From NCBI GenBank assembly GCA_938014885.1, contig CALLQI010000011.1, forward strand, positions 51,344 to 115,343: a DNA stretch of 64,000 nt. Reading direction: 5' to 3'. The notes beneath the pieces are model-generated. The model did no database searches, had not been told where the DNA came from, and saw only the letters and a list, made by a program, of their open reading frames with translations. This document shows positions 1 to 16,527 of this stretch, piece by piece; position 1 is the stretch's first letter, and each line of letters starts with the position of its first letter. A program made the position numbers and the translations under genes. The DNA comes from an uncultured bacterium. Its GTDB lineage: Bacteria > Planctomycetota > UBA8742 > UBA2392.

Positions 1-3000
1 TCCAGGCGCACGCAGTCGGCGCCTGCCGTGACGTCGCTGGTCTGGATCGAGCCAATGCCGTCATTGATGCGCAGGCCGTTGCCGGCAGCAGACAGCGTGC
101 AAGCCGTCAGCGTCAGCGTAGAGGTCGGGCCGATCGACTCGGCGGCGTCGCCGGCGCTTGAGTCGACGGTCGTGCCACCGCTCACGTGCAGCAGGGCAGC
201 GGGTCCGGAAGCGTCTGTCTCCGCGCGCAGGGCGCGTGTTGCTCCGGCGTAGCTGCCGTTGCTGACGTTCGCGTGAACCAGGTTGGTCGGGGCACCACCG
301 CCGATGTCGGCGCAGCGCACCAACAGGGCCGTCGTGCAACTGGTCGGGCCTGCGGAGCCTATAGAGACGTTTATCAGGTCGATGATGGAGTCATTGGAGG
401 CAGGACCCTGAAGCAAGTCCGAGCTCTCTAACAGGATACCGACGTTCGCGCCGTCAACACTGCCGCCTGAAACATTCAGGTTTGAGGTCTCGATGTCCCA
501 GAAGTACATGCCACGGTCGAAAGTGCCGCCATTTGCGGAGAGCACGTTGCCGGTGAGCTGAACGTCCATGTCGTTGTAGATGCCCTGCAGGGTGATGCCA
601 ACGCCACCGCTGCCGGTCGCGGCGATGGTGTTGTTGCTGACTACGATGGGCGAAATGCTTGTCAGGTCGAGCGCCACGATCTCGATAGCCACGGAGTTGG
701 CATTCACGTCGATGCTGTTGTTCGAGATGTTTGTGGGGGCTAGACGGTCATTACTGAAGTTCGCGACCTGGATGCCGATGGCGCCGGGGAACGTGAGGAT
801 GCGGTTACCGGTGATGTCCAGGAAGGCGTCATCCTCACAACGCACCGCGCTCAGGTCGCAGTTGGCGAACAGGCTGTTGCTCAAGGTGCCGACTGTGGCA
901 CCAAAACTGTTGGCTACCGCTACGCCACACTCGGCGAAGTTCTCGAATACGCAGTTCGTGACCAGCAGGCCAACGACATCGATCGTGTCGTTGTTCACGC
1001 CGCTGCGCGCATCGCGACCGGTGCCGAACAGCGGCCTGTCACCTTCGAAGGCGAAACCATCAATGGAGACGTCGTCGGAAACAGTGAACAGGTCGTCGCT
1101 CGCGGGGGATGCCCCGGTGGCGACCACGATCGTCTCGTTGGCGGGAACCAGCGGCAGGCGGCCCGCGCCCACGTTGCCGAACTGAGCGCCCCGCATGGTC
1201 AGCGGGCGATACACGTCAACCAGCTCGATGAACGTGCCGACGTCAACTTCAAGCGTGTCATTGTTGTTAGCCTCGTCCACACCACGCTGGATGCTGCCGC
1301 TGTTCTGGGTCACGAACACGCGGCCCGATTCAATGCGTACGAAACCGCGCGTGGCGTCGTCAATCGCGTGGGTCATGCGGTTCTCGACCTCGAAACCCGC
1401 GAAGGGGCTGCCGCTGACGCGCGGCAGGGTCAGGTCGAACTGGAACGCGTTTTCGTACCAATCGTTACCCGTTGCATCGACATCGGCCGTGCCCGGGAAC
1501 GCGGTGAAATAGCCGCCGCCGGTAGTGCGAATGATGAAGGTGTTAGCCGCGGTGCCGCTGAGGTCAAGACTGCCGGCCTGGAACACGAAGCACTCAAAAT
1601 TGCCCGAGTCGCTCTCGCGAACAGTTGTACCGGACAAAGATGCAGAGCCGCCCAGGATGTCGATCGTCACGTCAGCGCCCACCTGGTTGATGTCGCTGTT
1701 GTCCAGGATCACCACCGCGCCGGTGTCGATGACGACGGCGCGCGCGGCGGCATTCTGCGTGACAGTCAGGCCATCAATACTGACGTTCGTGTCCAAGTAC
1801 AGCGCTGTCTGCGGCGTCTGCTGGTCAAGGGTGCCGCCCTGCACGATAACCGTGCCGCTGTTGACCCGCAGGGCCGAGGCGCCGTTGCCGGTCAGCGTGG
1901 CGCCGGCTGTCAGGTCGAGGGTAACGTCGCGGGTGATGATCGCGCTGCCGTAGGTGCCGCCTGCAACGATCACCGTGCCGCCGTCCGCCACGTGGTCCAA
2001 ACCGGCCTGCACGGTGTCGAAGGCGTCGATGCCGTAGCGATGCGGTGCCAGGGGCGACGGGGCATTCGGGTCGTCGCCGTAGTTGAGCGCCGAGAACGCC
2101 AAGTCAACGTAAACCGTCTGCTGCCTGACCGCGATGATCAGCAGCGCCGGCGGCGACGAAGTGTCCGCACCGCCGTTGGCAGTGCCGCCGTCGTCCGACA
2201 GCGTCACGTCGTACACGTAGATGCCATTCGAGCCAACGGGATCGATCGTGAATGTCAGGTCGCCGGTGGTTTCGTCAATGTCCGGCGCGGCCGTGAAGTT
2301 CACGGTACCCACCGACTGCGCAGGCAGCTGGGTCAGGTTGAACGTCAACACCTGGCCGCTCTCGTCCGCGGGGCCCTTGCTGATGGCCGTGGCCCATGCC
2401 AGGTGGGTCTGTGGTCCAGCCGTGGGCGCCAACGGAGTCAGGTTCACGCCCGGCGTGAAGCTGGGCGCGTCATTGACCGCAGTTACATCAACGCTGACCA
2501 GCACGGGGCTGGCCGAGGTCTCACTGGGTAGGGGGGTACCGTCGTCAAAGCATTCCACGCTGAAGGCCGCAAGTGCGCTTCCGTTGGCATCCGCTGCCGG
2601 GGTCCAGCGCAGGGTGTCGGCGCTGGTGACGGTCTGCGGCAGAACGACCGCTGCAAAGACGCTCGTTGTGCCTACGTCGATCAGCAGCGTGCCGCTGCTG
2701 ACGGCCGTGACGCGGAAGCCATCCACGCTACCGTCAATGTCCGAAGCGCTGGTCGTGGTGACCAGGTCGCCAAACGTGATGTCGATGGCGGTATCTTCGT
2801 TGGTGGCGCTTGCCAGCGTACCGGCTGACAGAGTCGGCGCGTCATTGACGGCGTTGACGTCAACGCTGATCAGCACAGCGCCGGCAGAGGTCTGGCTGGG
2901 GGCCGGGGTGCCGTTGTCGAAGCACTCGACGCTGAAGGCTGCAAGCGCGCTGCCGTTGGCGTTGGACGCCGGGGTCCAGCGCAGGATGTCAGCGCTGGTG

Positions 3001-5258
3001 AATGTCTGCGGCAGAACGACCGCTGCAAAGACGGTCGTTGTGCCTACGTCGATCAGCAGCGTGCCGCTGCTGATGGCGGTAACCCGGAAGCCGACCACGC
3101 TGCCGTCCAGGTCCGAAGCACTGGTCGTGGCGACCAGGTCACCAAACGTGATATCAATGGCCGTGTCTTCGTCCGTCGCGGTTGCCAGCGTGCCGGCCGC
3201 AAGGGTCGGCGCGTCGTTGACGGCCGTAACCTGTACCGAGCAGATTGAAGCGGAATCGACTCCGCCGTCGCCGTCCGCGACCGTGAACTGGATGTTGTGG
3301 ATCGCTGTCGGGTTATCGGAAATGTTTTCGTACTCAATGCGATTAAGCAGCGCCTGCACACGCGCCGGGGTCGCATTTGCGTTCAGGATAACCTGCAGGG
3401 CCTGGCCGTTGATACCGCTGCCGGCGCCGGCATCGGCAAAGAAGCCGAAGACTGTCGCGCCATCAAGCACGTCGATGAAGCCGGGCGCGCCCGGGGCCGT
3501 CGTGATCGATCCCGAGTTACGGATGGTGAGCTGGTCGTCGGCCGTACCGCCCGAGATGAAGCTGGCAATGAAGGTGCCGGTGTCGAAGTCTGCACTGTCA
3601 ATGTCCGTCACCGTGGCTGCCGGCGCAACCAGCGTGGCGGGGTCATTTTCCGTGTACGGCAGAGTTGCCGGTACACCGGCAGCGACTGGTGGGTCATTGG
3701 TGGGCGTGACCTGTACGGTGACCTGCACGGGCGTCGAGGACGGCAGGGCGCCGTCGTAAGCCACGACGGTGAAGGCGTTGACAGCCGCGCCGTTGTCGTT
3801 GAGGGCGGGGGTCCATTCCAGCTGGTCGCCGGAAGCGACGACCGTGGTGCCGTAGGTGACCGCGCCGCCGTTGTAGGTCAGCGTGCCCGTGCTGAGGGCT
3901 TCAACGCGGAAGTTGATGGTTGCCGAGTCAACGTCCGCTTCGTCGGCCGCAGCGGCGAGCTGGGCGTAGGTGATGATGATCTGGGTGTCTTCGTTGACGG
4001 GCCCCAAAGTGCTGACCGAGGTCAGAGTCGGCGCGTCGTTGACGGGATTGACCGTGATGTTGAATGCCACGCTGGTCGGGCCAGAAGGGGCCGGGTCCGC
4101 TACGTCGAACACAAAGCTGTCGCTGGCCGTCTCGCTGCCGTCGTGGTCATAAGTGAGGTTGTTGGCATTGATATCGGCCTGCGTGAACGTGCCAGATACT
4201 GCCACGGGTGTACCGCTGAGGCGAAGCGTCCCATTGGAGGGGGCTGTAGTAAGCGTATAGGTAATCTGGCCGGCGGTGTTATCCGGATCGGTGGCCTCAA
4301 GCATCGCCTGGGTCACGACGCTTCCTGTATCACCTTCGTCAACGGTCAGTCCGGTGTTTGTGGTTACCGATGGCGCGTCGTTGACGGGATTGACCGTGAT
4401 GTTGAATGCCACGCCGGTCGGGCCAGAAGGGGCCGGGTCCGCTACGTCGAACACAAAGCTGTCGCTGGTCGTCTCGCTGCCGTCGTGGTCATAAGTGAGG
4501 TTGTTGGCATTGATATCGGCCTGCGTGAACGTGCCAGATACTGCCACGGGTGTACCGCTGAGGCGAAGCGTCCCATTGGAGGGGGCTGTAGTAAGCGTAT
4601 AGGTAATCTGGCCGGCGGTGTTATCCGGATCGGTGGCCTCAAGCATCGCCTGGGTCACGACGCTACCTGTATCACCTTCGTCAACGGTCAGGCCGGTGTT
4701 TGTGGTTACCGATGGCGCGTCGTTGAGCGGAGTTATGTCGATGTTGAGTGAATCCGTGTCGTTGTTGGAAAACGCGTCCGTGATGCTGTACAGCACCGTA
4801 ACCTGAGCCACCGGATTGTTTGACAGGTTTCGATAGGTAATCGCCCGCAACAGGTCCTGCATCTGGGTGCTGGAAGCCGTGGTACCGAAGCTGATTACCA
4901 GTGCGTCGGTACCAATTCCGCTGCCTGGACCCGTCTTCGGATACGAACCTACGACGGCAGGTCCTGTAGAGTGCGTGACCAACCAGTTTGCGCCGGCGTC
5001 CACCAGCGTGATTGCACCAATGGCCCCAACAGCCAGTCTGTCAAACGACGTGTTGTTCGCCGAAATCGACACCGTCAGGTTGCCAGTGTCATAGGTGACG
5101 GGATCGGACGCGTCGGTAAATGAGTAGGCCGCATCAATCTGAGTGGCCGCCGAATCTTCCGTATATGCAGACGGGTTCGTCCCGACAGTCAACGTCGGCT
5201 GTGCGGCTGCTACGGTGGCGAACAGGGTAAGGATGGCCAGGAGTGCGAGTTTGCGCAT
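1..5258 (-). CDS. Giant secreted adhesin-like protein, N-terminal ~1752 codons. The C-terminus lies beyond the left window edge. Contains a signal peptide, tandem cadherin-like repeats delimited by V-N-D-A-P motifs, then a parallel beta-helix-like region.
   Basis: Absent from the ORF track because no stop is reached in-window. I translated the minus frame from ATG 5258-5256 (MRKLALLAILTLFATVAAAQPTLTVGTNPSAY...). I re-checked the same frame near 2876 (VLISVDVNAVNDAPTLSAGTLASATNEDTAIDITFGDL...) and near 509 (...GMYFWDIETSNLNVSGGSVDGANVGILLESS...) and saw no stops. The long + strand ORFs here are Arg/Gly/Val-rich shadow frames. Confidence 0.85.
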   Translation of the reverse strand, partial: MRKLALLAILTLFATVAAAQPTLTVGTNPSAYTEDSAATQIDAAYSFTDASDPVTYDTGNLTVSISANNTSFDRLAVGAIGAITLVDAGANWLVTHSTGPAVVGSYPKTGPGSGIGTDALVISFGTTASSTQMQDLLRAITYRNLSNNPVAQVTVLYSITDAFSNNDTDSLNIDITPLNDAPSVTTNTGLTVDEGDTGSVVTQAMLEATDPDNTAGQITYTLTTAPSNGTLRLSGTPVAVSGTFTQADINANNLTYDHDGSETTSDSFVFDVADPAPSGPTGVAFNITVNPVNDAPSVTTNTGLTVDEGDTGSVVTQAMLEATDPDNTAGQITYTLTTAPSNGTLRLSGTPVAVSGTFTQADINANNLTYDHDGSETASDSFVFDVADPAPSGPTSVAFNITVNPVNDAPTLTSVSTLGPVNEDTQIIITYAQLAAAADEADVDSATINFRVEALSTGTLTYNGGAVTYGTTVVASGDQLEWTPALNDNGAAVNAFTVVAYDGALPSSTPVQVTVQVTPTNDPPVAAGVPATLPYTENDPATLVAPAATVTDIDSADFDTGTFIASFISGGTADDQLTIRNSGSITTAPGAPGFIDVLDGATVFGFFADAGAGSGINGQALQVILNANATPARVQALLNRIEYENISDNPTAIHNIQFTVADGDGGVDSASICSVQVTAVNDAPTLAAGTLATATDEDTAIDITFGDLVATTSASDLDGSVVGFRVTAISSGTLLIDVGTTTVFAAVVLPQTFTSADILRWTPASNANGSALAAFSVECFDNGTPAPSQTSAGAVLISVDVNAVNDAPTLSAGTLASATNEDTAIDITFGDLVTTTSASDIDGSVDGFRVTAVSSGTLLIDVGTTSVFAAVVLPQTVTSADTLRWTPAADANGSALAAFSVECFDDGTPLPSETSASPVLVSVDVTAVNDAPSFTPGVNLTPLAPTAGPQTHLAWATAISKGPADESGQVLTFNLTQLPAQSVGTVNFTAAPDIDETTGDLTFTIDPVGSNGIYVYDVTLSDDGGTANGGADTSSPPALLIIAVRQQTVYVDLAFSALNYGDDPNAPSPLAPHRYGIDAFDTVQAGLDHVADGGTVIVAGGTYGSAIITRDVTLDLTAGATLTGNGASALRVNSGTVIVQGGTLDQQTPQTALYLDTNVSIDGLTVTQNAAARAVVIDTGAVVILDNSDINQVGADVTIDILGGSASLSGTTVRESDSGNFECFVFQAGSLDLSGTAANTFIIRTTGGGYFTAFPGTADVDATGNDWYENAFQFDLTLPRVSGSPFAGFEVENRMTHAIDDATRGFVRIESGRVFVTQNSGSIQRGVDEANNNDTLEVDVGTFIELVDVYRPLTMRGAQFGNVGAGRLPLVPANETIVVATGASPASDDLFTVSDDVSIDGFAFEGDRPLFGTGRDARSGVNNDTIDVVGLLVTNCVFENFAECGVAVANSFGATVGTLSNSLFANCDLSAVRCEDDAFLDITGNRILTFPGAIGIQVANFSNDRLAPTNISNNSIDVNANSVAIEIVALDLTSISPIVVSNNTIAATGSGGVGITLQGIYNDMDVQLTGNVLSANGGTFDRGMYFWDIETSNLNVSGGSVDGANVGILLESSDLLQGPASNDSIIDLINVSIGSAGPTSCTTALLVRCADIGGGAPTNLVHANVSNGSYAGATRALRAETDASGPAALLHVSGGTTVDSSAGDAAESIGPTSTLTLTACTLSAAGNGLRINDGIGSIQTSDVTAGADCVRL
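2469..3212. repeat. Two tandem 372-bp in-frame coding repeats (124-aa cadherin-like modules), roughly 85 % identical by eye.
   Basis: Unit starts at 2469, 2841 and 3213 all begin with gtc(a/g)ttgac (minus-sense ...VNDAP), giving a period of exactly 372 nt. Confidence 0.85.
3693..4718. repeat. Three tandem 342-bp in-frame coding repeats (114-aa modules). The last two copies (4035-4376 and 4377-4718) are nearly identical.
   Basis: Shadow ORFs 4100..4300 and 4442..4642 have identical translations. Unit starts at 4035 and 4377 are both gtcgttgacgggattgaccgtgatgttgaatgccacgc, giving a period of 342 nt. Confidence 0.9.
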
Positions 5259-5552
5259 AGTAGGCTCGAATAGTCTTTGTCTTGTGTCACAGGGCAATTG
5301 ATGCAACAACCCATTTCCGGCCGCAGCGGGACCTACCCCGCCCACGGAACAGAACCGCGCCAGTTCAAGAGGCGAAAACGGTAGATATCGAGTGCGTTTA
5401 GGGCAACTGGAAAATGAACCATGGCGTGCAATCTTGGAAAGCAGTGGCGGATTCAGAAGAGGTGGCGATCTGATGCCACGACGCCTTCACCGTGTAGGGC
5501 ACGGCCGGCACGGTGCCAATGGCTTTGACGCTTGAACCCAGCCAAGGCTTGT

Positions 5553-5762: not shown

Positions 5763-6746
5763 CTACTTGAAGTAGCTTGAGGCCTTGATTGCTTCCGCCA
5801 ATTCCTTGGCTTTTTCTGCCGCCCGGGTGCCCGTGTTTTTCTCGTAGAACTTGCCCAAGGCTGATGCCTTGGCGTCTTTGCCCTTCACCTTCTTGTTGGC
5901 GGCAAGGGTCTTGGCCAATGCCTCTTCAGCCTTCATCTCTTTCTTCACGTCGGCGTCCTTTTGCATTTCCTTTGAGTCCGCGTCGGCCTTGGTGCCTTCT
6001 TCACTGCCCTTGAAGCGCGCGGCGATGCGGGCGTAGAAGGCGGCTGCATCGGTAAAGCGCTTTTCGTCGCGGGCCTTGGCGGCCTCATCATTCCACTTCT
6101 TGGCCAGCGCGTTGCAGCGCTCGACGATGTACTTGGCGTCTTCGTCGGCCTCGTTGGCGGCAAGTGCCTCATTGGCGAGCTGGCGGGCCTTGGTGTAGTC
6201 GCCCTTGCCGAACGCTTCGGCGGCCTTCTTGGCGCTTTCGCCGACTTCGGCCTTGCCGAGCCCGGGGTAGGCGACCTTGGCCAGCGATTCTTCGATGAAC
6301 TTTTCGTACTCGCCGTTGCCCTGGTACACGCAGCGGCCAAAGCTGTTGATCACGTACACGATCGGCATGCTCTTGGTGTCGTAGCCCGCCAGAGTGCTTT
6401 CCGAAGCGGCCACGAAGGGGACCTTCCAGCCCCACTCGCCGACAAAGGCTTCCATCTCAAGGGTGCTCATGCCTTCGCCTTCCACGGCGAAGAAGTGCAC
6501 GCCCTTGTCGCGGTACTTTTCCCACAGTTCCTGAAAGTGCGGCAACTGCCGCAGGCAGGGGGCTCAGTTGGGGCCCCAGGTCTTCATTACAATGATCTCG
6601 CCCGCCAGATCGGCCTTTGCGGTCGGGCCGTACTGGTTGACGATGCCCTTCATGTCGAAGTCGGGCGCGTCCTGGCCCGCAATTTTCTGCGCGCTGAGTG
6701 CGCTGCCGGCCAAGGCCAGCGTCATTAGCAATGCGAAGCGGAACAT
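5763..6746 (-). CDS. Exported TlpA/ResA-like thioredoxin-fold oxidoreductase with an in-frame UGA (6564-6566) at the first Cys of CxxC (U-A-P-C). It is a candidate selenoprotein. The C-terminus has a Lys/Ala/Glu-rich helical extension.
   Basis: ORFs 6564..6746 and 5763..6545 share one frame and are split only by the TGA. The junction reads ...IIVMKTWGPN-U-APCLRQLPHFQELWEKYRDKGVHFFAV.... ATG 6746 is preceded by AAGGAGAG. The N-terminus MFRFALLMTLALAGSALSAQ is a signal peptide. Confidence 0.7.
6530..6555 (-). promoter_or_regulatory. SECIS-like hairpin downstream of UGA 6564-6566.
   Basis: The mRNA folds as CCUG-CGGC-(AGUU)-GCCG-[CACUUU]-CAGG. The apical loop begins 16 nt after the UGA and has G as its second base. 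Confidence 0.4.
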
Positions 6747-6864
6747 CGGGCTCTCCTTGCTTGCCTGTTATGTGGAAAACACTGACTTGTACTTACGGGC
6801 TGAATCGCTTCGGTGCGGCGGTCGACAGCATGGCCCCAGCCCTTCGGCTGGGGCTGCGTTGCCA

Positions 6865-8514
6865 TTACTCGTAGAACACTACAACTGACTCTACCACATG
6901 GCTGGCCCAGTCTTTGCTCTCGAAGTCTTCGCTTACGTACTCCAACTCGAGTTCGCTGCCGGGTTTGAGCTGCTTCGTGATGTCGATTTCCCAGACCCGG
7001 CCGAAGCTGCCGGGGCCCCAGCCCGCGCGGTCGTACTTCCACGTTCCGAACTGCGGGCGCCACGGGTTCAGGTAACAATCCGTCGTGTGCAGCTTGTTGA
7101 TGTGCAGCACGTCGCCCACGCGCACGGTGCGATCCAGCGGCTTGAACTCAAGCACGCCATGCCCGGTTACACAGATGCGCAGCCTGGCGCTGCGGGCGTT
7201 GCCGGGCACTTTGATGCGCCGCACGCCGTAAACGGCCTTCACGCTTTCGGCGCTGTTGAAGTTGGCGGTGCCGCGCCAGACGTTGACCACGCCGGCTACC
7301 TTGGGCAACGCGGCCACATCGGCGGGCTTGCGGTAGTAGTGGAACTCGATGTCAAAGGTGAAGCCCTTGCCGACGTTGGAGCCCATGCTGGCGAAGATGG
7401 TGCGCTTGCCGGTCAGCAGGTGGCGCAGGTGGGTGACGTCGCATACGTACTCATAGCTGACACCCCAAAGCATGAAGGGCGTGAGAATGCGCGCGAGCTC
7501 AAAGCTCTCTTCACCGTCGCGCACGAGAACCTGCCCCAAGCGGTCCCACTCGTCGCGTTCGACCATCGGCTTCAGGCGCAGGGTCATCAGCACGCGCTCG
7601 AACTCGACGCCGGCGGGCAGCAACTCCACTTCGCGCTCGACGGCGGGGCCGCGGGTGGCGTGCCAGGCGCTGCGCATGGCTTCCACCGTGATCGGGCCCG
7701 GCGAATTGGCGGCCGCCGCGCCGAAATCCACGTGCAGGCTGTCGATGCTGCATGCGCCGCCGTCGGGCCCATAGGCGCCGACCGCCGCCCGCGATTCATA
7801 GGGCATCAAGTGCGGCAGAAAGTGCCGGTCGTACACACTTTGGCCGCCGACGCCGACGGTGACTTCCGCGCCGCCGGTGACGAAATCCAGCTTCACGCTC
7901 AGCACGCAAGCTTCACCGGTGGCGAACTCAGGCGTGCAGAACACATTTGCGAGCTCGCGCCCGTCCCAGTGCAGGCTGACTTCGCGCTGAGGCCGATCAT
8001 GGATATTCCCCCACTGGTTGAAGGGGTCTTCCGTGGGCGGGTTGTGGGTGTCGAGCGCCACGGCGAAGCTGCCCCACAGGTTGGGCTCGTCCCACAGGGG
8101 CTCGGCCGGTGTGGGGTCGCCGGGGAAGCCGCGCTGCTTATAGAGGTAAAAGGCCGCACCTTCGGCCGCAAAGTGGCCGGTGTGCAGCAGCATGAACGAA
8201 AGGCCGCGCGCGCCGGGCGTCAGGCGGAAGACCATTTCGGCGCTGATGCTGCGGCGTTCGCCGGGGATCTGCACCGGCCAGGCTGCGGAGTTGTTTTCAC
8301 CGCCGCCGCCGGACAGCAGATGCAGCTTGCCGTCGCGCACTGCCGGGGCCTTGCCTTCGGCGTGTTTGCGCAGGGTGTACCCGGGCTTTTCGGGTACCTT
8401 CGAGAAATCTTCGTGCAGGACTTGCGGCGGCGTTTCAGGCTTGGCCGGCGGGTCCTGGGCAGTGGAAAGGGCAGTTGTGGCAAACAGGCAACAAAGCGCA
8501 ATCGCGTAACGCAT
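6865..8514 (-). CDS. Secreted 549-aa protein. The N-terminal region looks lectin/LamG-like. The C-terminal half weakly resembles a PNGase F-type jelly-roll; function is uncertain.
   Basis: Long ORF with signal peptide MRYAIALCCLFATTALSTAQ and normal amino-acid composition. The overlapping + strand ORF 6898..8535 is an Ala/Gly/Arg-rich shadow. The domain guess rests only on remembered motifs such as ...KYDRAGWGPG.... Confidence 0.8.
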   Translation of the reverse strand: MRYAIALCCLFATTALSTAQDPPAKPETPPQVLHEDFSKVPEKPGYTLRKHAEGKAPAVRDGKLHLLSGGGGENNSAAWPVQIPGERRSISAEMVFRLTPGARGLSFMLLHTGHFAAEGAAFYLYKQRGFPGDPTPAEPLWDEPNLWGSFAVALDTHNPPTEDPFNQWGNIHDRPQREVSLHWDGRELANVFCTPEFATGEACVLSVKLDFVTGGAEVTVGVGGQSVYDRHFLPHLMPYESRAAVGAYGPDGGACSIDSLHVDFGAAAANSPGPITVEAMRSAWHATRGPAVEREVELLPAGVEFERVLMTLRLKPMVERDEWDRLGQVLVRDGEESFELARILTPFMLWGVSYEYVCDVTHLRHLLTGKRTIFASMGSNVGKGFTFDIEFHYYRKPADVAALPKVAGVVNVWRGTANFNSAESVKAVYGVRRIKVPGNARSARLRICVTGHGVLEFKPLDRTVRVGDVLHINKLHTTDCYLNPWRPQFGTWKYDRAGWGPGSFGRVWEIDITKQLKPGSELELEYVSEDFESKDWASHVVESVVVFYE

Positions 8515-8597
8515 GAGTATCCCGACGATGCTTGAAGTGGAGGTCCCGCCCCGTCATACGAACCACACGGGCGCGGGACCATGGAAAACGGCCTCAG

Positions 8598-9212
8598 TTA
8601 CTGCTGGTAGTTGGCCGGGCGCTTATAGGGCTTGATGGCAAAGACCTCGAGTTCGCCATCGGGCTCATAGCCGATGACTTCCACGTCCCACAGGCCGTTG
8701 TCGCGCTTGGGGCCCTCATAGATCAGTGAGGGCATCTTCACGCCCTGCAAGGTTGCGGTTTCGTCGGCGAAGTGGAACTCGCCCAGGATGCGCATCCCGG
8801 CAAGGCCCATGCCGCCGTCCTTGACCGCGGCGTGAATCGCGACCGGGTCAATGGCGTCTTCACGCTTCCACTCGAACCAGAGCACCTGGTCGTCCATGCT
8901 TGTCTGCACTGTCTCGCCGAACCGGCGTTGGAGTACGGACCGTACTCCGTCCACTCACTCTCATCACACTCAGCCGGCGACCAGCAGGTAGATAATCGGC
9001 GCGGGCGGCTTGATTTCTGCGGTGCCCTCGGTGGTGGTCTTCGTGGTCGTTTTCGTAGTGTCGGTCGTGTCGGCGACCTCGGTCGCTGAGGCCGTCTCAT
9101 CCTGCCATTGCAACGCACGGCGTTTCTCGGCGGTGTCGAAGCCGCTGCCGATGTGGCACGACGAAGCCGCCAGGCACACCAGCGCCAATGCAGTAACAAG
9201 CATGAGCTTCAT
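8598..9212 (-). CDS. Lipoprotein reading frame interrupted by four in-frame TGA codons (8970-72, 8964-66, 8961-63, 8955-57), giving G-U-V-U-U-E-U-V. This is either a multi-Sec protein or two separate small genes (8970..9212 and 8598..8954).
   Basis: ATG 9212 overlaps the upstream gene's stop as ATGA. MKLMLVTALALVCLAASSC is a lipoprotein signal followed by a Thr-rich linker. ORFs 8970..9227 and 8598..8954 are in the same frame. A perfect hairpin follows the TGA cluster. Confidence 0.45.
8930..8948 (-). promoter_or_regulatory. Perfect 7-bp hairpin GGAGUAC-(GGUCC)-GUACUCC, located 13-28 nt after the four UGAs. SECIS-like.
   Basis: The + strand reads ggagtacggaccgtactcc, a perfect palindrome. 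The loop starts with GG. Confidence 0.4.
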
Positions 9213-10153
9213 GTCGTGAACCTCCATGCGAAGCTGAACCGGAATGATACCTCATCGCGCAGCTGTACGCCGTGAGTATCCGCATACACAGGAACGTCAA
9301 AGATCGCCTTTAGTTCAAACCACGGGCGCGGGTGCCACTGCACTTTGGGACTGGCGTAGATGCCCCAGCCGCCCGTGTGCTTTACCCGTACGCCGTCGTC
9401 GCGGTCGAAATCGCGCCAGTCAAACTTCGCGCCCAGGCTGACGAACATGGTGTTGCCGGGGAACTTTTCCTGGATCACGCGGTACTTCAGCTCGAACTCG
9501 TTGCTGAAGGCATCGCCAAAATCGTAGTCGCTGCCGCCCACGCCGACGCTGCGCCAATGGTATTGCGTCGCGATGATGACCTCCCAGCGATTGTCGCTGT
9601 AAATGCCCGCGTGCGACAGCGTCAGCCCGTAGCTACCGGTGCCAAGCTGCAAATCGGCCGGCACTTCTTTGCCCAGGCGCGATGCGCCGCTTTCGCCTGT
9701 GGGCAGGTCCACGATGATGCCCGCGCTCAGCGACGCGCCGCGCTGGCTGTCGTCGCCGGGCACCCACCACAGGTATCGCATGCGCGCACCCAGGCTGACA
9801 TCACCAAGGCCTCGTACGCGATCGGTGACGACGCGGTCTTCCACGTGCATACGGAATTCGCGCCAGATCAGCGGGATCACGGCTGAAACCGTCCACTCAC
9901 CGGGAATCACCCGCGGCAGGCTGTAATTCACGCCCAGCCCCAGCTGGTGATCGACCATGAACAGGCCGTCGCGGTTGGGCACCGGGCGGAAGTCTTCAAA
10001 CGTGCGCGTGGCAAAGCGGTGCCGGTGCAGCGCGTACATCTGCAGGCCGCCCGCGTACAGCGGTTCTGCCTGCACAAAGTTGTGACCGGCCTCCGGCTCA
10101 GCCAGCAGCGGGGTTCACAACAGGATCAGCACCAGCAGAAAGCAGGTACGCAT
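9209..10153 (-). CDS. Outer-membrane beta-barrel protein (MetA-pathway/phenol-degradation-like OMP family). An in-frame TGA (10115-10117) lies inside the predicted signal peptide.
   Basis: The 288-aa ORF 9209..10075 has alternating beta-strand character and a C-terminal ...SFRFSFAWRFTT, but begins at GTG without a signal peptide. The same frame upstream reads MRTCFLLVLILL-TGA-TPLLAEPEAGHNF-VQAEPLY.... The family assignment is by resemblance only. Confidence 0.65.
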
Positions 10154-15474: not shown

Positions 15475-16527
15475 ATGAGAACTGCCGCTTTTGCTGCGCT
15501 GCTTCTGTTGCTCTGTGTGGATGCCGGTGCCCAGCGCCGTCAGGGCGGAAGCAGCCCGTTCACCGAGTTCCACAAGAAGTCTGCGCTGGCCAACGGGGCG
15601 GCCGCACCCGCGCTGCTGGCCCAGGACACCGATGGCAAACTGGTTGACCTGCGCGACTATCTGGGTCAATGGGTGTTCATCGAGTTCGGCAGCTACACGT
15701 GACCGCCCTGTGTGGCCCATTTCGGTGAAATGGAGAAGTTCGAAAAAGCCCACGGCGCGCAAGTCGCCTGCCTGTTCTTCTACACCAAAGAAGCCCACCC
15801 CGATGACGGCCCGGAAGACCGCAAAGACGCCGGCAGCACAGGCGGCTGGCGCATGAAGAACAACAAGATCCAGATTGACAAGCACACCAAGTACGCGGAT
15901 CGCCTGGATGCCGCCAAAGACCTGCGCAAGGCCGGCAAAGAAAAGTGGCGCGTGCTGGTCGATGACATGAAAGACACCAACCACGCGGCCTGGGGCAACC
16001 TGCCCAACATGGCGTTCCTGGTGGACCCGCAAGGGCGCATCCACCACAAATGGAGCTGGGTCGCCAGCAGCACAGGCAAGTCCAAGCGCAGCGGCGACGA
16101 CGGCACCAGCGACCTGTACACGCTGCTCAAGGCCGCCGGCGAGCTTGCGCCCTACACCGTGGCCGACGACCCGCAACTGCCGCTGCGCGACACGGTCGCC
16201 GGTGAATGGCTGCGCTACGGCGACACCACGGTCAAGTTCGCGCCGGCCGGCGAAGGCAAAGTGAAGCGCGACGACTCCGTGATTGAGCTGGCCCCGTTCA
16301 AAGCACCCGCAAAGCCAACCAAGGCCACACGCAAGGACTTCAAGTTGGGAAAGCACGAGCTGCCCTGCGTGGTGACTCAGACTGAAGAGGGCGAAATCTG
16401 GGTCTGCACCCGGTTGCCCGGCGACGGCGTCGTCAAGGTCGTCAAAGACGGCACGACGCTGCGCGAGCTGACCGACGCGGGCTTCACCGAAGGCAAGTCA
16501 TGCCTGGCCGAGTACAAGCCCGAGTGA
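15475..16527 (+). CDS. Exported deiodinase-like thioredoxin-fold protein with an in-frame UGA (15700-15702) in FGSYT-U-PPC. It is a candidate selenoprotein. An extra C-terminal domain of about 150 aa follows.
   Basis: ORFs 15475..15702 and 15712..16527 share a frame and are separated by one TGA. The junction reads ...GQWVFIEFGSYT-U-PPCVAHFGEMEKFEKAHG.... The signal peptide is MRTAAFAALLLLLCVDAGAQ, with GAGGGGA upstream of the ATG. Confidence 0.72.
15717..15733 (+). promoter_or_regulatory. SECIS-like hairpin CCAUUUC-(GGU)-GAAAUGG downstream of UGA 15700-15702.
   Basis: Perfect 7-bp stem with a GGU loop. The loop starts 21 nt after the UGA. Confidence 0.5.

What the first reader, a model, noticed from the sequence alone, without database searches (positions are those of the whole stretch)
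5763..10153. Envelope-targeted four-gene operon in which three members carry in-frame UGA: candidate undescribed periplasmic selenoprotein module
The minus-strand genes run OMP (10153-9209), lipoprotein with the U cluster (9212-8598, ATGA start/stop overlap with the OMP), secreted 549-aa lectin/PNGase-F-like protein (8514-6865), and TlpA-like U-x-x-C redoxin (6746-5763). They are co-directional and closely spaced, and every product has an export signal. A periplasmic thiol/selenol oxidoreductase sits next to a chalcogen-rich lipoprotein and a dedicated outer-membrane channel. That combination suggests a redox- or soft-metal-handling (or selenium-trafficking) pathway in the cell envelope. I know of no described system with this composition. 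The functional reading is inference only.
Basis: inference. Interest (0 to 1): 0.8.

Follow-up and report, generated by a model that had tools for sequence, protein, structure and literature searches.

The report
Four-selenocysteine lipoprotein paired with outer-membrane channel
A Planctomycetota chromosome carries a conserved two-gene unit, an outer-membrane channel plus a lipoprotein whose metal-binding-type loop is written with four UGA codons within seven codons; this is probably a new selenoprotein family with more selenocysteines than any catalogued in bacteria, while the proposed four-gene operon is not conserved.

Summary
Four co-directional minus-strand genes are present and six in-frame stops, all TGA, sit in three of them.

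The four-gene module is not conserved. Only the outer-membrane protein (OMP) plus lipoprotein pair recurs, in all 16 related Planctomycetota loci recovered. The PNGase-F-like gene lies next to the pair in 4 loci and also occurs without it. The U-x-x-C redoxin is in none of the 22 loci.

The cassette TGA-GTG-TGA-TGA-GAG-TGA (G-U-V-U-U-E-U) keeps all four TGAs in all 15 related loci that reach it, down to about 30% protein identity. Third-position substitution bias shows coding on both sides. In 7 of 12 genes no start codon follows the cassette. Two hairpins follow it in every copy; the second has an invariant GUU loop. A scan of 1.84 billion proteins found only post-cassette fragments and no Cys version.

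The domain resembles a heavy-metal-associated (HMA) fold on weak but concordant evidence. The OMP is a COG4313-type 12-strand barrel. In 7 loci its signal peptide also carries UGA, with Cys or Ala in others.

Best reading: an envelope channel plus a tetra-selenolate binder of a soft metal or metalloid. Sec decoding is well supported; the function is inferred.

The parts
9209..10153 (-). Outer-membrane beta-barrel channel, COG4313 / PF13557-like, 314 codons. Its TGA stop overlaps the ATG of the next gene.
   Evidence: The AlphaFold2 model (pLDDT 78, pTM 0.75) is an all-beta barrel. Foldseek's best match is 4rl8, the COG4313 channel of P. putida (E=5.5e-12, TM 0.75/0.83), followed by FapF. PF13557 is hit by 3 of 15 family members, best E=3.7e-10. 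The family has 14 homologues, all Planctomycetota where named.
10115..10117 (-). In-frame UGA at codon 13, in the hydrophobic core of the OMP signal peptide, 5 residues before the predicted cleavage site A|EP.
   Evidence: UGA occupies the same position in the window, L007, L008, L017, L018, L019 and L022. L016 and L012 have Cys there; L009, L010, L014, L013 and L015 have Ala. No convincing conserved hairpin follows it: consensus fold -9.8 kcal/mol.
8598..9212 (-). Lipoprotein, 204 codons. It consists of a lipobox, a conserved C[HR]IGSGFDTAEKRR motif, a Thr/Pro/Lys-rich linker, an HMA-like domain with the loop G-U-V-U-U-E-U, and a small beta-rich C-terminal domain.
   Evidence: Translation and alignment across loci. 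Profile search of the PDB: top hit is an ATP7B HMA domain, E=0.013, with U4 and U7 on the CxxC cysteines. hhalign against 5 HMA proteins: E=0.01, same register. AlphaFold2 model of the 118 residues after the cassette: pLDDT 86, alpha-beta-beta-alpha-beta followed by further beta strands. Foldseek gives only weak local matches to HAH1 and CopZ, rmsd 2.1-2.2 A over 47-49 residues, E about 3.5.
8955..8972 (-). Tetra-UGA cassette TGA GTG TGA TGA GAG TGA. It reads as two interleaved U-x-x-U motifs (positions 2/5 and 4/7 of the loop).
   Evidence: The four TGAs are present in all 15 related loci that reach this point. Mean pairwise difference within the cassette is 0 / 0 / 0.028 by codon position, against 0.43 and 0.40 at third positions of the flanks. 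The only variants are CTG for GTG (L021) and GAA for GAG (L007).
8930..8948 (-). Hairpin 1 (GGAGUACG-GUC-CGUACUCC), starting 6 nt after the last UGA. Candidate SECIS element.
   Evidence: A hairpin forms at this place in the minimum-free-energy fold of all 13 sequences folded. On 14 aligned sequences 75% of cells pair. The loop sequence varies (GGUCC, AGUCU, GGGUC, AAAAC and others).
8915..8927 (-). Hairpin 2 (CGCCG-GUU-CGGCG), starting 27 nt after the last UGA. Candidate SECIS core.
   Evidence: The GUU loop is invariant in all copies even where the encoded residues change (RRFG, RQLG, AQLG, RQFD). On 14 sequences 90% of cells pair. By my reading of the sequence, L022 keeps the stem through two double changes (C-G to U-A and G-C to A-U). 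The redoxin hairpin has the same kind of AGUU loop.
6865..8514 (-). Secreted PNGase-F-related protein, 549 aa. A neighbour of the pair, not part of the conserved unit.
   Evidence: Pfam N-glycanase_C, E=4.5e-8. 174 homologues scored E<=0.001; those that carry a source name are Planctomycetota, plus one Armatimonadota. It is adjacent to the pair only in the window, L022, L016 and (one gene away) L008. It occurs without the pair in L001, L003, L005 and L006.
5763..6746 (-). Secreted TlpA/ResA-like thioredoxin-fold protein with U-A-P-C at the CxxC position and a helical C-terminal half. The UGA is at 6566-6564 and a hairpin (UGCGGC-AGUU-GCCGCA) lies at 6553-6538, 10 nt after the UGA. A neighbour of the pair, not conserved with it.
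   Evidence: Pfam AhpC-TSA and Redoxin. NCBIfam ResA subfamily E=1e-17. The C-terminal half matches the C-terminal region of the VPGUxxT (seleno)thioredoxin family NF041382, E=1e-9, far below that model's cut-off. Hairpin. No homologue in any of the 22 loci.

Best explanation
The real unit is two genes, not four. A COG4313-type 12-strand outer-membrane channel gene is translationally coupled to a lipoprotein gene through an ATGA overlap. The lipoprotein's HMA-like domain carries four selenocysteines in its beta1-alpha1 loop (G-U-V-U-U-E-U, two interleaved U-x-x-U motifs).

The four UGAs are most likely decoded as Sec by the usual bacterial route, SelB with a hairpin inside the reading frame. 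Two tandem hairpins follow the cassette. Hairpin 1 lies at SECIS-like distances from UGAs 1-3. Hairpin 2, with an invariant GUU loop, would stay folded when the ribosome reaches UGA 4.

The mature lipoprotein would present a tetra-selenolate site in the envelope. That site would capture a thiophilic species (Cu(I), Hg(II), Cd, Ag, or an organometal or metalloid) and exchange it with the partner channel.

In one clade the channel's own signal peptide also contains UGA. That residue is removed on export, so the codon most plausibly acts as a gate. It would make channel synthesis depend on the same recoding capacity the lipoprotein needs.

The PNGase-like gene and the U-x-x-C redoxin are neighbours in this genome. 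The redoxin is an ordinary member of known Sec-containing TlpA/redoxin families. It could keep the selenols reduced, but nothing here shows that.

Shown: conservation of the pair, the cassette and the hairpins; read-through; the fold of the channel. Inferred: Sec rather than another residue; the HMA-like fold of the loop region; metal binding; the direction of transport; the gating role of the leader UGA.
For: Pair: the OMP and lipoprotein genes are adjacent in 15 of 16 related loci, overlapping or a few to about 30 nt apart. L013 has one gene inserted between them.

Cassette: all four TGAs are kept in 15 of 15 loci, down to about 30% protein identity. The cassette nucleotides are nearly invariant, while flanking third codon positions differ at 0.40-0.43.

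Read-through: 7 of 12 genes have no ATG, GTG or TTG right after the last TGA, yet the next 15-19 codons are conserved with third-position bias.

Context dependence: TGA is an ordinary stop in the same operon (the OMP stop; the L008 lipoprotein stop) and in 8 of 32 window genes.

Hairpins: both are present in all 13 sequences folded. 81% of cells pair, against 26-57% when partners are slid. L022 shows two compensatory pairs in hairpin 2 by my reading of the sequence.

Sec use by this organism: two more genes in the window put UGA at positions that known selenoprotein families use. These are the redoxin (UAPC) and a deiodinase-like protein (GSYT-U-PPC), and each UGA is followed by a hairpin (family list in PMC13188914).

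No Cys form: a HMMER scan of 1.84e9 representatives gave 10 hits at E<=0.001. The eight that align along the domain are 100-119 aa fragments that begin after the cassette.

HMA-like fold. A paralogue in L019 has G-U-L-G-C (U-x-x-C) in the same loop.

Channel.
Against: - No Sec machinery (selA, selB, selC, selD) could be checked. The 64-kb window has none and only two ordinary tRNAs.
- Covariation in the hairpins is meagre on the formal count: 1 of 13 pairs shows a double change. Support rests mainly on conservation.
- Four successive SelB-dependent insertions, two at adjacent codons, have no bacterial precedent that I could find, and would be expected to be inefficient.
- The HMA assignment is weak. 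Pfam HMA does not hit at E<=10. The profile E-values are about 0.01. Foldseek on the fragment has no hit below E=0.1.
- No metal-homeostasis or regulator genes recur beside the pair.
- No conserved SECIS was found for the OMP leader UGA.
- All sequences come from metagenome assemblies.
Confidence: 0.6

Rival explanations
1. One reading: all four genes form one operon and one pathway. The TlpA-like U-x-x-C redoxin would reduce the Sec-rich lipoprotein, and the PNGase-like protein and the channel would act in the same redox, metal or selenium route.
For: The genes are co-directional with gaps of 83 and 118 nt. TlpA-type reductases are known to reduce periplasmic metal-site cysteines (established knowledge of TlpA with ScoI and CoxB). 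Other thioredoxin-fold genes lie near the pair in some loci. An unrelated TlpA-like C-x-x-S protein is directly downstream in L013, and a DUF255 thioredoxin-domain protein lies divergently upstream in L009. The PNGase-like gene is beside the pair in 4 loci.
Against: The redoxin has no homologue in any of the 22 loci. PNGase-like orthologues keep their own synteny (Peptidase_M20 ... PNGase) without the pair in L001 and L003, so the pair looks like an insertion into a variable slot. GC-rich hairpins sit in both gaps. Thioredoxin-fold genes are, to my knowledge, numerous in Planctomycetota, so occasional adjacency is expected. Clustering of unrelated selenoprotein genes is a known pattern (PMC13188914, section 9).
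Confidence: 0.12
2. The UGA-interrupted frames are pseudogenes or assembly errors, or the lipoprotein is really two genes: a short N-terminal lipopeptide ending at the first TGA and a separate downstream protein.
For: Gene callers split the lipoprotein into fragments of about 61-76 and 99-120 aa in every public contig. In the window a GTG follows the last TGA.
Against: The same four TGAs recur in 15 independent assemblies from different samples. Third-position substitution bias is present on both sides of the cassette. 7 of 12 genes lack any start codon for 3-19 codons after it, although that stretch is conserved as protein. The beta1 strand, loop and alpha1 helix make sense only as one chain.
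Confidence: 0.04
3. The UGAs are read through, but not as selenocysteine. Possibilities are Cys from a UCA-anticodon tRNA, near-cognate Trp or Cys, or a double frameshift that bypasses the cassette.
For: The +1 frame is open through the cassette (...PAECDESEWTEYG..., the 153-aa ORF 8738-9199). No Sec machinery could be inspected. The leader UGA of the OMP has no clear SECIS. TGA is under-used as a stop in the window, 8 of 32 genes at 63% GC.
Against: If Cys were the product, UGC or UGU should replace at least one of the four codons somewhere among 15 lineages, and it never does. Conserved hairpins with G/U-containing loops lie at SECIS-like distances. The same window has UGA at the canonical Sec positions of redoxin and deiodinase-like families. 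A bypass would need two frameshifts.
Confidence: 0.12
4. The genetics are as in the best explanation but the chemistry differs. The Sec cluster would be a diselenide redox relay, or a carrier of selenium or another chalcogen (Se(0), polyselenide, polysulfide), and not a metal site. The COG4313 channel would pass a hydrophobic or chalcogen substrate.
For: Two interleaved U-x-x-U motifs resemble redox CxxC pairs. The L019 paralogue has a plain U-x-x-C. COG4313 channels are described as conduits for hydrophobic molecules (PDB 4rl8 entry title, plus general knowledge).
Against: The fold register matches metal-binding HMA loops and not a thioredoxin fold. No sulfur or selenium metabolism genes recur beside the pair. 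APS kinase and ATP sulfurylase in L003 and L022 lie 4-5 kb away and belong to the PNGase-side synteny.
Confidence: 0.2

Closest known systems
HMA (heavy-metal-associated) domains: CopZ, Atx1/HAH1, MerP, N-terminal domains of ATP7B/CopA (motif GMxCxxC)
   Same: Probable beta-alpha-beta-beta-alpha-beta topology. The binding loop sits between beta1 and alpha1. U4 and U7 fall on the two cysteines in both profile alignments. Like MerP, it is located outside the cytoplasm.
   Different: It has four Sec where HMA domains have two Cys. It is lipid-anchored through a long linker and has an extra beta-rich C-terminal domain. Its partner is an outer-membrane channel, not a P-type ATPase or a mer operon. 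The Pfam HMA model does not detect it.
[quoted passage not shown]
   Same: Selenocysteine replaces the metal-ligand cysteines of a small metal-binding module.
   Different: Those families have 1-2 Sec, and the largest count in that catalogue is 3. None is a planctomycetal lipoprotein. No NCBIfam model, NF041115 included, matches the window protein at E<=0.1.
COG4313 / PF13557 outer-membrane channels (Pput2725, PDB 4rl8) and FapF
   Same: A 12-strand barrel of about 290 residues. It is the best structural match, TM 0.75/0.83. Pfam hits in 3 family members.
   Different: 13% sequence identity. It always precedes the Sec lipoprotein gene. In one clade its signal peptide carries UGA.
Eukaryotic selenoprotein P (multi-Sec, Sec-rich C-terminus)
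   Same: Several UGAs are decoded in one short stretch.
   Different: No homology. SELENOP uses 3'-UTR SECIS elements and SBP2. Here the hairpins lie inside the reading frame right after the cluster.
Multi-selenoprotein gene clusters SAO and Tso (Haft; summarised in PMC13188914, section 9)
   Same: Neighbouring selenoprotein genes with Sec proposed as a ligand for metals or organometals. Unrelated selenoprotein genes cluster nearby, as do the redoxin and the deiodinase-like gene here.
   Different: The proteins and the taxa (anaerobic Firmicutes and others) are different, and those clusters have no outer-membrane channel plus lipoprotein pair.
U-x-x-C TlpA / thiol-disulfide isomerase-like / Redoxin selenoproteins (cd02966, PF08534)
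   Same: The window redoxin has the fold, the signal peptide, U at the first CxxC position and a SECIS-like hairpin 10 nt downstream.
   Different: It has an added helical C-terminal half, related to the C-terminus of the VPGUxxT family. This is an ordinary new member of a known kind.

Membership tests
Bacterial selenoprotein (UGA decoded as Sec): lipoprotein | In-frame UGA conserved among orthologues, with coding signal on both sides | tested here: met
   All four UGAs are present in 15 of 15 loci. Third-position bias lies upstream (0.21/0.09/0.43) and downstream (0.23/0.23/0.40). No start codon follows the cassette in 7 of 12 genes.
Bacterial selenoprotein (UGA decoded as Sec): lipoprotein | Homologues with Cys aligned to the UGA | tested here: not met
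   No Cys form was found by the word-index search or by the scan of 1.84e9 representatives. Those hits are post-cassette fragments. The only partial case is the L019 paralogue, with G-U-L-G-C.
Bacterial selenoprotein (UGA decoded as Sec): lipoprotein | SECIS-like hairpin downstream of the UGA, with its apical loop some 16-37 nt away (range recalled from the bSECISearch model) | tested here: met
   Two conserved hairpins follow the cassette. The hairpin 1 loop lies 14-29 nt after the four UGAs. The hairpin 2 GUU loop lies 32-47 nt after them. 81% of cells pair, against 26-57% in slid controls, with little covariation.
Bacterial selenoprotein (UGA decoded as Sec): lipoprotein | selA, selB, selC and selD present in the genome; selenium present in the protein | not testable with these tools
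   The window has none of these genes.
HMA domain (PF00403) | Match to the family model | tested here: not met
   No Pfam HMA hit at E<=10 for any of 15 members.
HMA domain (PF00403) | Beta-alpha-beta-beta-alpha-beta fold with two ligand residues, spaced x-x, in the beta1-alpha1 loop | tested here: inconclusive
   PDB profile search: top hit ATP7B HMA, E=0.013. hhalign: E=0.01 over 62 columns, in register. The AlphaFold2 model of the fragment lacking beta1 gives alpha-beta-beta-alpha-beta. Foldseek gives only weak local HAH1 and CopZ matches.
COG4313 / PF13557 outer-membrane channel | 12-strand barrel fold matching Pput2725; family-model hit | tested here: met
   Foldseek 4rl8: E=5.5e-12, TM 0.75/0.83. 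PF13557 is hit by 3 of 15 members (best 3.7e-10) but not by the window protein itself.
TlpA/ResA-like thiol-disulfide oxidoreductase (redoxin gene) | Thioredoxin-fold model hit, C/U-x-x-C at the active site, export signal | tested here: met
   AhpC-TSA 37.7 bits and Redoxin 30.8 bits, both above cut-off. ResA subfamily E=1e-17, below its own cut-off. WGPN-U-APC. The signal peptide was judged by eye.
Four-gene operon / conserved module | The same neighbourhood in relatives | tested here: not met
   Only the pair recurs. The PNGase-like gene is beside it in 4 of 17 loci (window included) and the redoxin in none of the 22 related loci.
Four-gene operon / conserved module | Co-transcription | not testable with these tools
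   The evidence is indirect only. Hairpins in both gaps have z-scores of -1.4 and -1.5. The consensus scans found no promoter or terminator above background.

The most novel reading that the evidence does not exclude
The cassette would be a bacterial device for processive multi-Sec insertion: four UGAs within seven codons, two of them adjacent, served by two tandem in-frame SECIS hairpins. It would produce an obligately selenium-based tetra-selenolate site that sulfur cannot replace. The UGA in the cleaved signal peptide of the upstream channel would act as a recoding-dependent gate. The channel would then be made only when enough Sec-tRNA and SelB are available to make its lipoprotein partner.
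Probability: 0.3. Interest if true: 0.9.

Novelty: new variant of a known kind. Interest (0 to 1): 0.8.

Why it matters
Bacterial Sec insertion is understood as one UGA served by one hairpin just downstream, and it is regarded as inefficient. A conserved natural gene that needs four insertions in seven codons, two of them adjacent, gives a direct test of how SelB and the ribosome handle successive UGAs. It also tests whether tandem hairpins share that work.

The 2026 catalogue of prokaryotic selenoprotein families lists at most three Sec per protein. Most families in that catalogue also have Cys forms. A family with no Cys form at any of four positions points to chemistry that sulfur cannot supply. 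It offers a compact natural tetra-selenolate site for metal-binding and redox studies.

A UGA in a cleaved signal peptide would be a new kind of regulatory use of recoding.

On the practical side, gene callers split this family in every public genome. It is therefore invisible to annotation and absent from Pfam and NCBIfam.

Tried and rejected
- The word-index homology search with the full-length Cys-substituted lipoprotein found nothing. Only the scan without a word index, run with the post-cassette fragment, found relatives.
- Exact-sequence look-up of the window's PNGase-like protein found no contig.
Only the 118-residue fragment could be modelled, so the loop itself is not in any model.
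- Foldseek with that fragment gave no significant hit.
- The Pfam HMA model does not detect the family. The PDB profile search with the OMP alignment gave nothing.
- A conserved SECIS for the OMP leader UGA could not be established. Individual folds differ in register and the consensus is weak.
- Consensus promoter and terminator scans were at background level.
- Rfam found only the two tRNAs.
- GC3-based screening for further UGA-interrupted genes gave mostly antisense artefacts. For example, 580-1512(+) was rejected after translation.
- Genome-wide UGA reassignment was rejected, because TGA is a normal stop in the same operon and in 8 of 32 window genes.
- Literature searches for multi-Sec bacterial proteins, consecutive UGA decoding, or planctomycetal selenoproteins of this kind found nothing relevant (targeted reads).
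- Redoxin homologues could not be surveyed.

Full report
**1. What is in the window**

- The first gene (10153-9209) has one in-frame TGA at codon 13, at 10117-10115.
- The second (9212-8598) starts with an ATG that overlaps the first gene's TGA stop (ATGA). It contains TGA GTG TGA TGA GAG TGA at 8972-8955.
- The third (8514-6865, 549 aa) has no internal stop.
- The fourth (6746-5763) has one TGA at 6566-6564, in the context TWGPN-U-APC.

All six internal stops are TGA. GC by codon position (about 0.6 / 0.4 / 0.8) marks all four frames as coding.

Pfam calls the third protein PNGase-F-related (N-glycanase_C) and the fourth AhpC-TSA/Redoxin. The first two have no Pfam or NCBIfam match.

The flanks are nuoD on the opposite strand and tRNA-Arg(CCT). 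The rest of the window holds housekeeping genes. Homologues that carry a source name are labelled Planctomycetota or Planctomycetes, with one Armatimonadota among the PNGase-like hits.

**2. Is the four-gene neighbourhood conserved? No.**

I anchored first on the PNGase-like protein, which has many homologues. Orthologues at 46-66% identity sit in unrelated contexts in L001, L003, L005 and L006.

I then anchored on the OMP, which has only 14 homologues among 5.8 billion protein clusters. Scanning genomes and metagenomes and looking up contigs gave 16 loci.

- In every one the lipoprotein gene follows the OMP gene. It overlaps or lies a few to about 30 nt away. In L013 one opposite-strand gene is inserted.
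- Nothing else in the window is syntenic with these loci.
- The PNGase-like gene lies directly after the pair in L022 and L016, and one gene further on in L008.
- In this clade a Peptidase_M20 ... PNGase synteny exists with or without the pair. L001 has a He_PIG protein in the slot and L003 a CAP-domain protein. The pair therefore occupies a variable slot.
- The redoxin has no counterpart in any of the 22 loci at E<=0.01.
- Other thioredoxin-fold genes occur near the pair. L013 has an unrelated TlpA-like C-x-x-S protein downstream, and L009 has a DUF255 protein divergently upstream. Such genes are, to my knowledge, common in this phylum.
- Both intergenic gaps in the window contain GC-rich hairpins.

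**3. The UGAs are not damage**

The cassette keeps all four TGAs in all 15 loci that reach it, at 30-55% protein identity. The only changes are CTG for GTG (L021) and GAA for GAG (L007).

Within the cassette the mean pairwise difference is 0 / 0 / 0.028 by codon position. In the ten codons before it the values are 0.21 / 0.09 / 0.43, and in the twenty after it 0.23 / 0.23 / 0.40. So both flanks evolve as protein and the cassette is also constrained as RNA.

In 7 of 12 genes the codon after the last TGA is not a start codon (GTC, GTT, GTA, ACT, ATC). The first in-frame ATG, GTG or TTG lies 3-19 codons further on. Yet that stretch, VDGVRSVLQRRFG, is the best-conserved helix of the domain. It can only be translated by read-through.

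TGA is otherwise a normal stop. It ends the OMP gene, the L008 lipoprotein gene and 8 of 32 window genes. The decoding is therefore context-dependent.

A HMMER scan of 1.84 billion representative proteins with the post-cassette fragment found 10 hits at E<=0.001. The eight that align along the domain are 100-119 residues long and begin after the cassette. No full-length Cys version exists in that library. The word-index search with a Cys-substituted query also found none.

**4. Recoding signals**

Every copy folds into two hairpins right after the cassette.

- Hairpin 1 (window 8948-8930) starts 6 nt after UGA 4. Its loop varies.
- Hairpin 2 (8927-8915, CGCCG-GUU-CGGCG) has an invariant GUU loop, although the encoded residues change (RRFG, RQLG, AQLG, RQFD).
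- By my reading of the sequence, L022 keeps hairpin 2 through two double substitutions.

On 14 sequences 81% of cells pair, against 26-57% when the partners are slid. Formal covariation is low, with one double-change pair in 13.

The redoxin UGA is followed after 10 nt by UGCGGC-AGUU-GCCGCA. A deiodinase-like gene elsewhere in the window (UGA at 15700-15702, GSYT-U-PPC) is also followed by a hairpin in its fold. By eye, a 6-bp stem with a CGGUG loop can be drawn about 14 nt after that UGA. Both proteins belong to families listed as Sec-containing (PMC13188914). This organism very probably decodes UGA as Sec.

The Sec machinery itself could not be inspected.

**5. What the two proteins are**

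The OMP. The model (pLDDT 78) is a barrel. Its best structural match is the COG4313 channel 4rl8 (E=5.5e-12, TM 0.75/0.83), followed by FapF. Three family members hit PF13557.

The lipoprotein has these parts:
- a lipobox;
- a conserved C[HR]IGSGFDTAEKRR motif right after the lipidated Cys;
- a low-complexity linker;
- the segment IVYLLVAG-UVUUEU-VDGVRSVLQRRFG...;
- a C-terminal beta-rich part.

A profile of the family searched against all PDB sequences ranks an ATP7B HMA domain first (E=0.013). The alignment places U4 and U7 on the CxxC cysteines. hhalign against five classical HMA proteins aligns 62 columns in the same register (E=0.01).

The modelled fragment (pLDDT 86) has the alpha-beta-beta-alpha-beta order expected after beta1. 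It shows weak local matches to HAH1 and CopZ. The Pfam HMA model does not detect the family. The HMA-like reading is therefore probable but not established.

The loop can be read as two interleaved U-x-x-U motifs. A paralogue next to the gene in L019 has G-U-L-G-C, that is U-x-x-C at positions 2 and 5.

**6. The UGA in the signal peptide**

Seven loci (window, L007, L008, L017, L018, L019, L022) have UGA five residues before the predicted A|EP cleavage site. L016 and L012 have Cys there, and five others have Ala.

Without read-through the channel has no signal peptide. With read-through the recoded residue is removed on export. A catalytic role is therefore unlikely.

I propose, as inference, that this UGA gates synthesis of the channel on recoding capacity. 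It may also gate the translationally coupled lipoprotein gene.

No convincing SECIS was found here. Near-cognate read-through cannot be excluded for this one codon.

**7. Comparison with what is known**

The 2026 review of prokaryotic selenoproteomes lists its families with their motifs and Sec counts.
- The largest count is 3.
- HMA-type 'metal-binding protein' NF041115 has UxxU (2 Sec).
- U-x-x-C TlpA/redoxin and deiodinase-like families are listed.
- No planctomycetal lipoprotein appears, and no channel of this kind.
- Neither Planctomycetes nor signal peptides are mentioned.

Two further recent papers and five literature searches gave nothing closer.

The redoxin is therefore an ordinary new member of a known kind. 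The lipoprotein plus channel pair is a new selenoprotein family and a new variant of Sec recoding.

**8. Verdict**

The conserved entity is a two-gene unit. The four-gene operon is a local arrangement.

Confidence is about 0.85 that the cassette is translated through, most likely as Sec. It is about 0.4 that the site binds a soft metal or metalloid in cooperation with the channel. Other chemistry, such as a diselenide relay or chalcogen carriage, remains open.

Noticed in passing
window 15475-16527 (+), TGA at 15700-15702: A secreted deiodinase-like protein with in-frame UGA in the motif FGSYT-U-PPC. Its C-terminal part hits Pfam T4_deiodinase (E=2e-9), and a hairpin (by eye CCAUUU-CGGUG-AAAUGG) follows the UGA. 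It is a fourth UGA-containing gene within about 11 kb, so selenoprotein genes cluster in this region.
   Followed up: partly
L019:1640-2209 (+): Directly downstream of the tetra-Sec lipoprotein gene lies a paralogous lipoprotein whose loop reads DG-U-L-G-C-A-D (one Sec, one Cys, U-x-x-C). It corresponds to the database fragment P0141. The family therefore has members with fewer Sec.
   Followed up: partly
whole window, and loci L001-L021: TGA is under-used as a stop for a 63% GC genome. Among confident ORFs of at least 200 codons the window has TAG 15, TAA 9 and TGA 8. Over the window and all loci the counts are TAG 48, TGA 37 and TAA 25.
   Followed up: partly
L013:7940-9230 (-): In this one locus an opposite-strand gene is inserted between the OMP and lipoprotein genes. 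It encodes a multi-pass membrane protein with a C-x-x-C-x-x-C-x-x-x-C-P motif, which looks polyferredoxin/NapH-like by eye.
   Followed up: no
L001, L003, L008, L016, L018, L022: The slot between a Peptidase_M20 gene and the PNGase-like gene varies among relatives. It holds a He_PIG protein (L001), a CAP-domain protein (L003), the OMP+lipoprotein pair (L022, L016), or the pair plus He_PIG (L008). The pair behaves like a cassette gained or lost at this site.
   Followed up: partly
window 5763-6260 (-), C-terminal half of the redoxin: The helical Lys/Ala/Glu-rich C-terminal half matches the C-terminal region of the NCBIfam VPGUxxT thioredoxin-like (seleno)protein family NF041382 (E=1e-9, far below that model's cut-off). 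This suggests a tail domain shared among planctomycetal periplasmic Trx-like selenoproteins.
   Followed up: no
window about 3300-4750: The ORF 3297-4751 (+) contains a near-perfect tandem duplication of about 120 codons (...RVVDGIDRDVECHAGRARRG...GLKHRLGHDA...). It has no Pfam hit and may be the antisense of a repetitive gene. The region 1-5500 could not be assigned.
   Followed up: no
L011 and L014 (the same MAG, H3_PLA7): The pair occurs twice in this assembly. The L011 copy has frameshifts in both genes but keeps the cassette nucleotides. It is either an assembly duplicate or a decaying paralogue.
   Followed up: no
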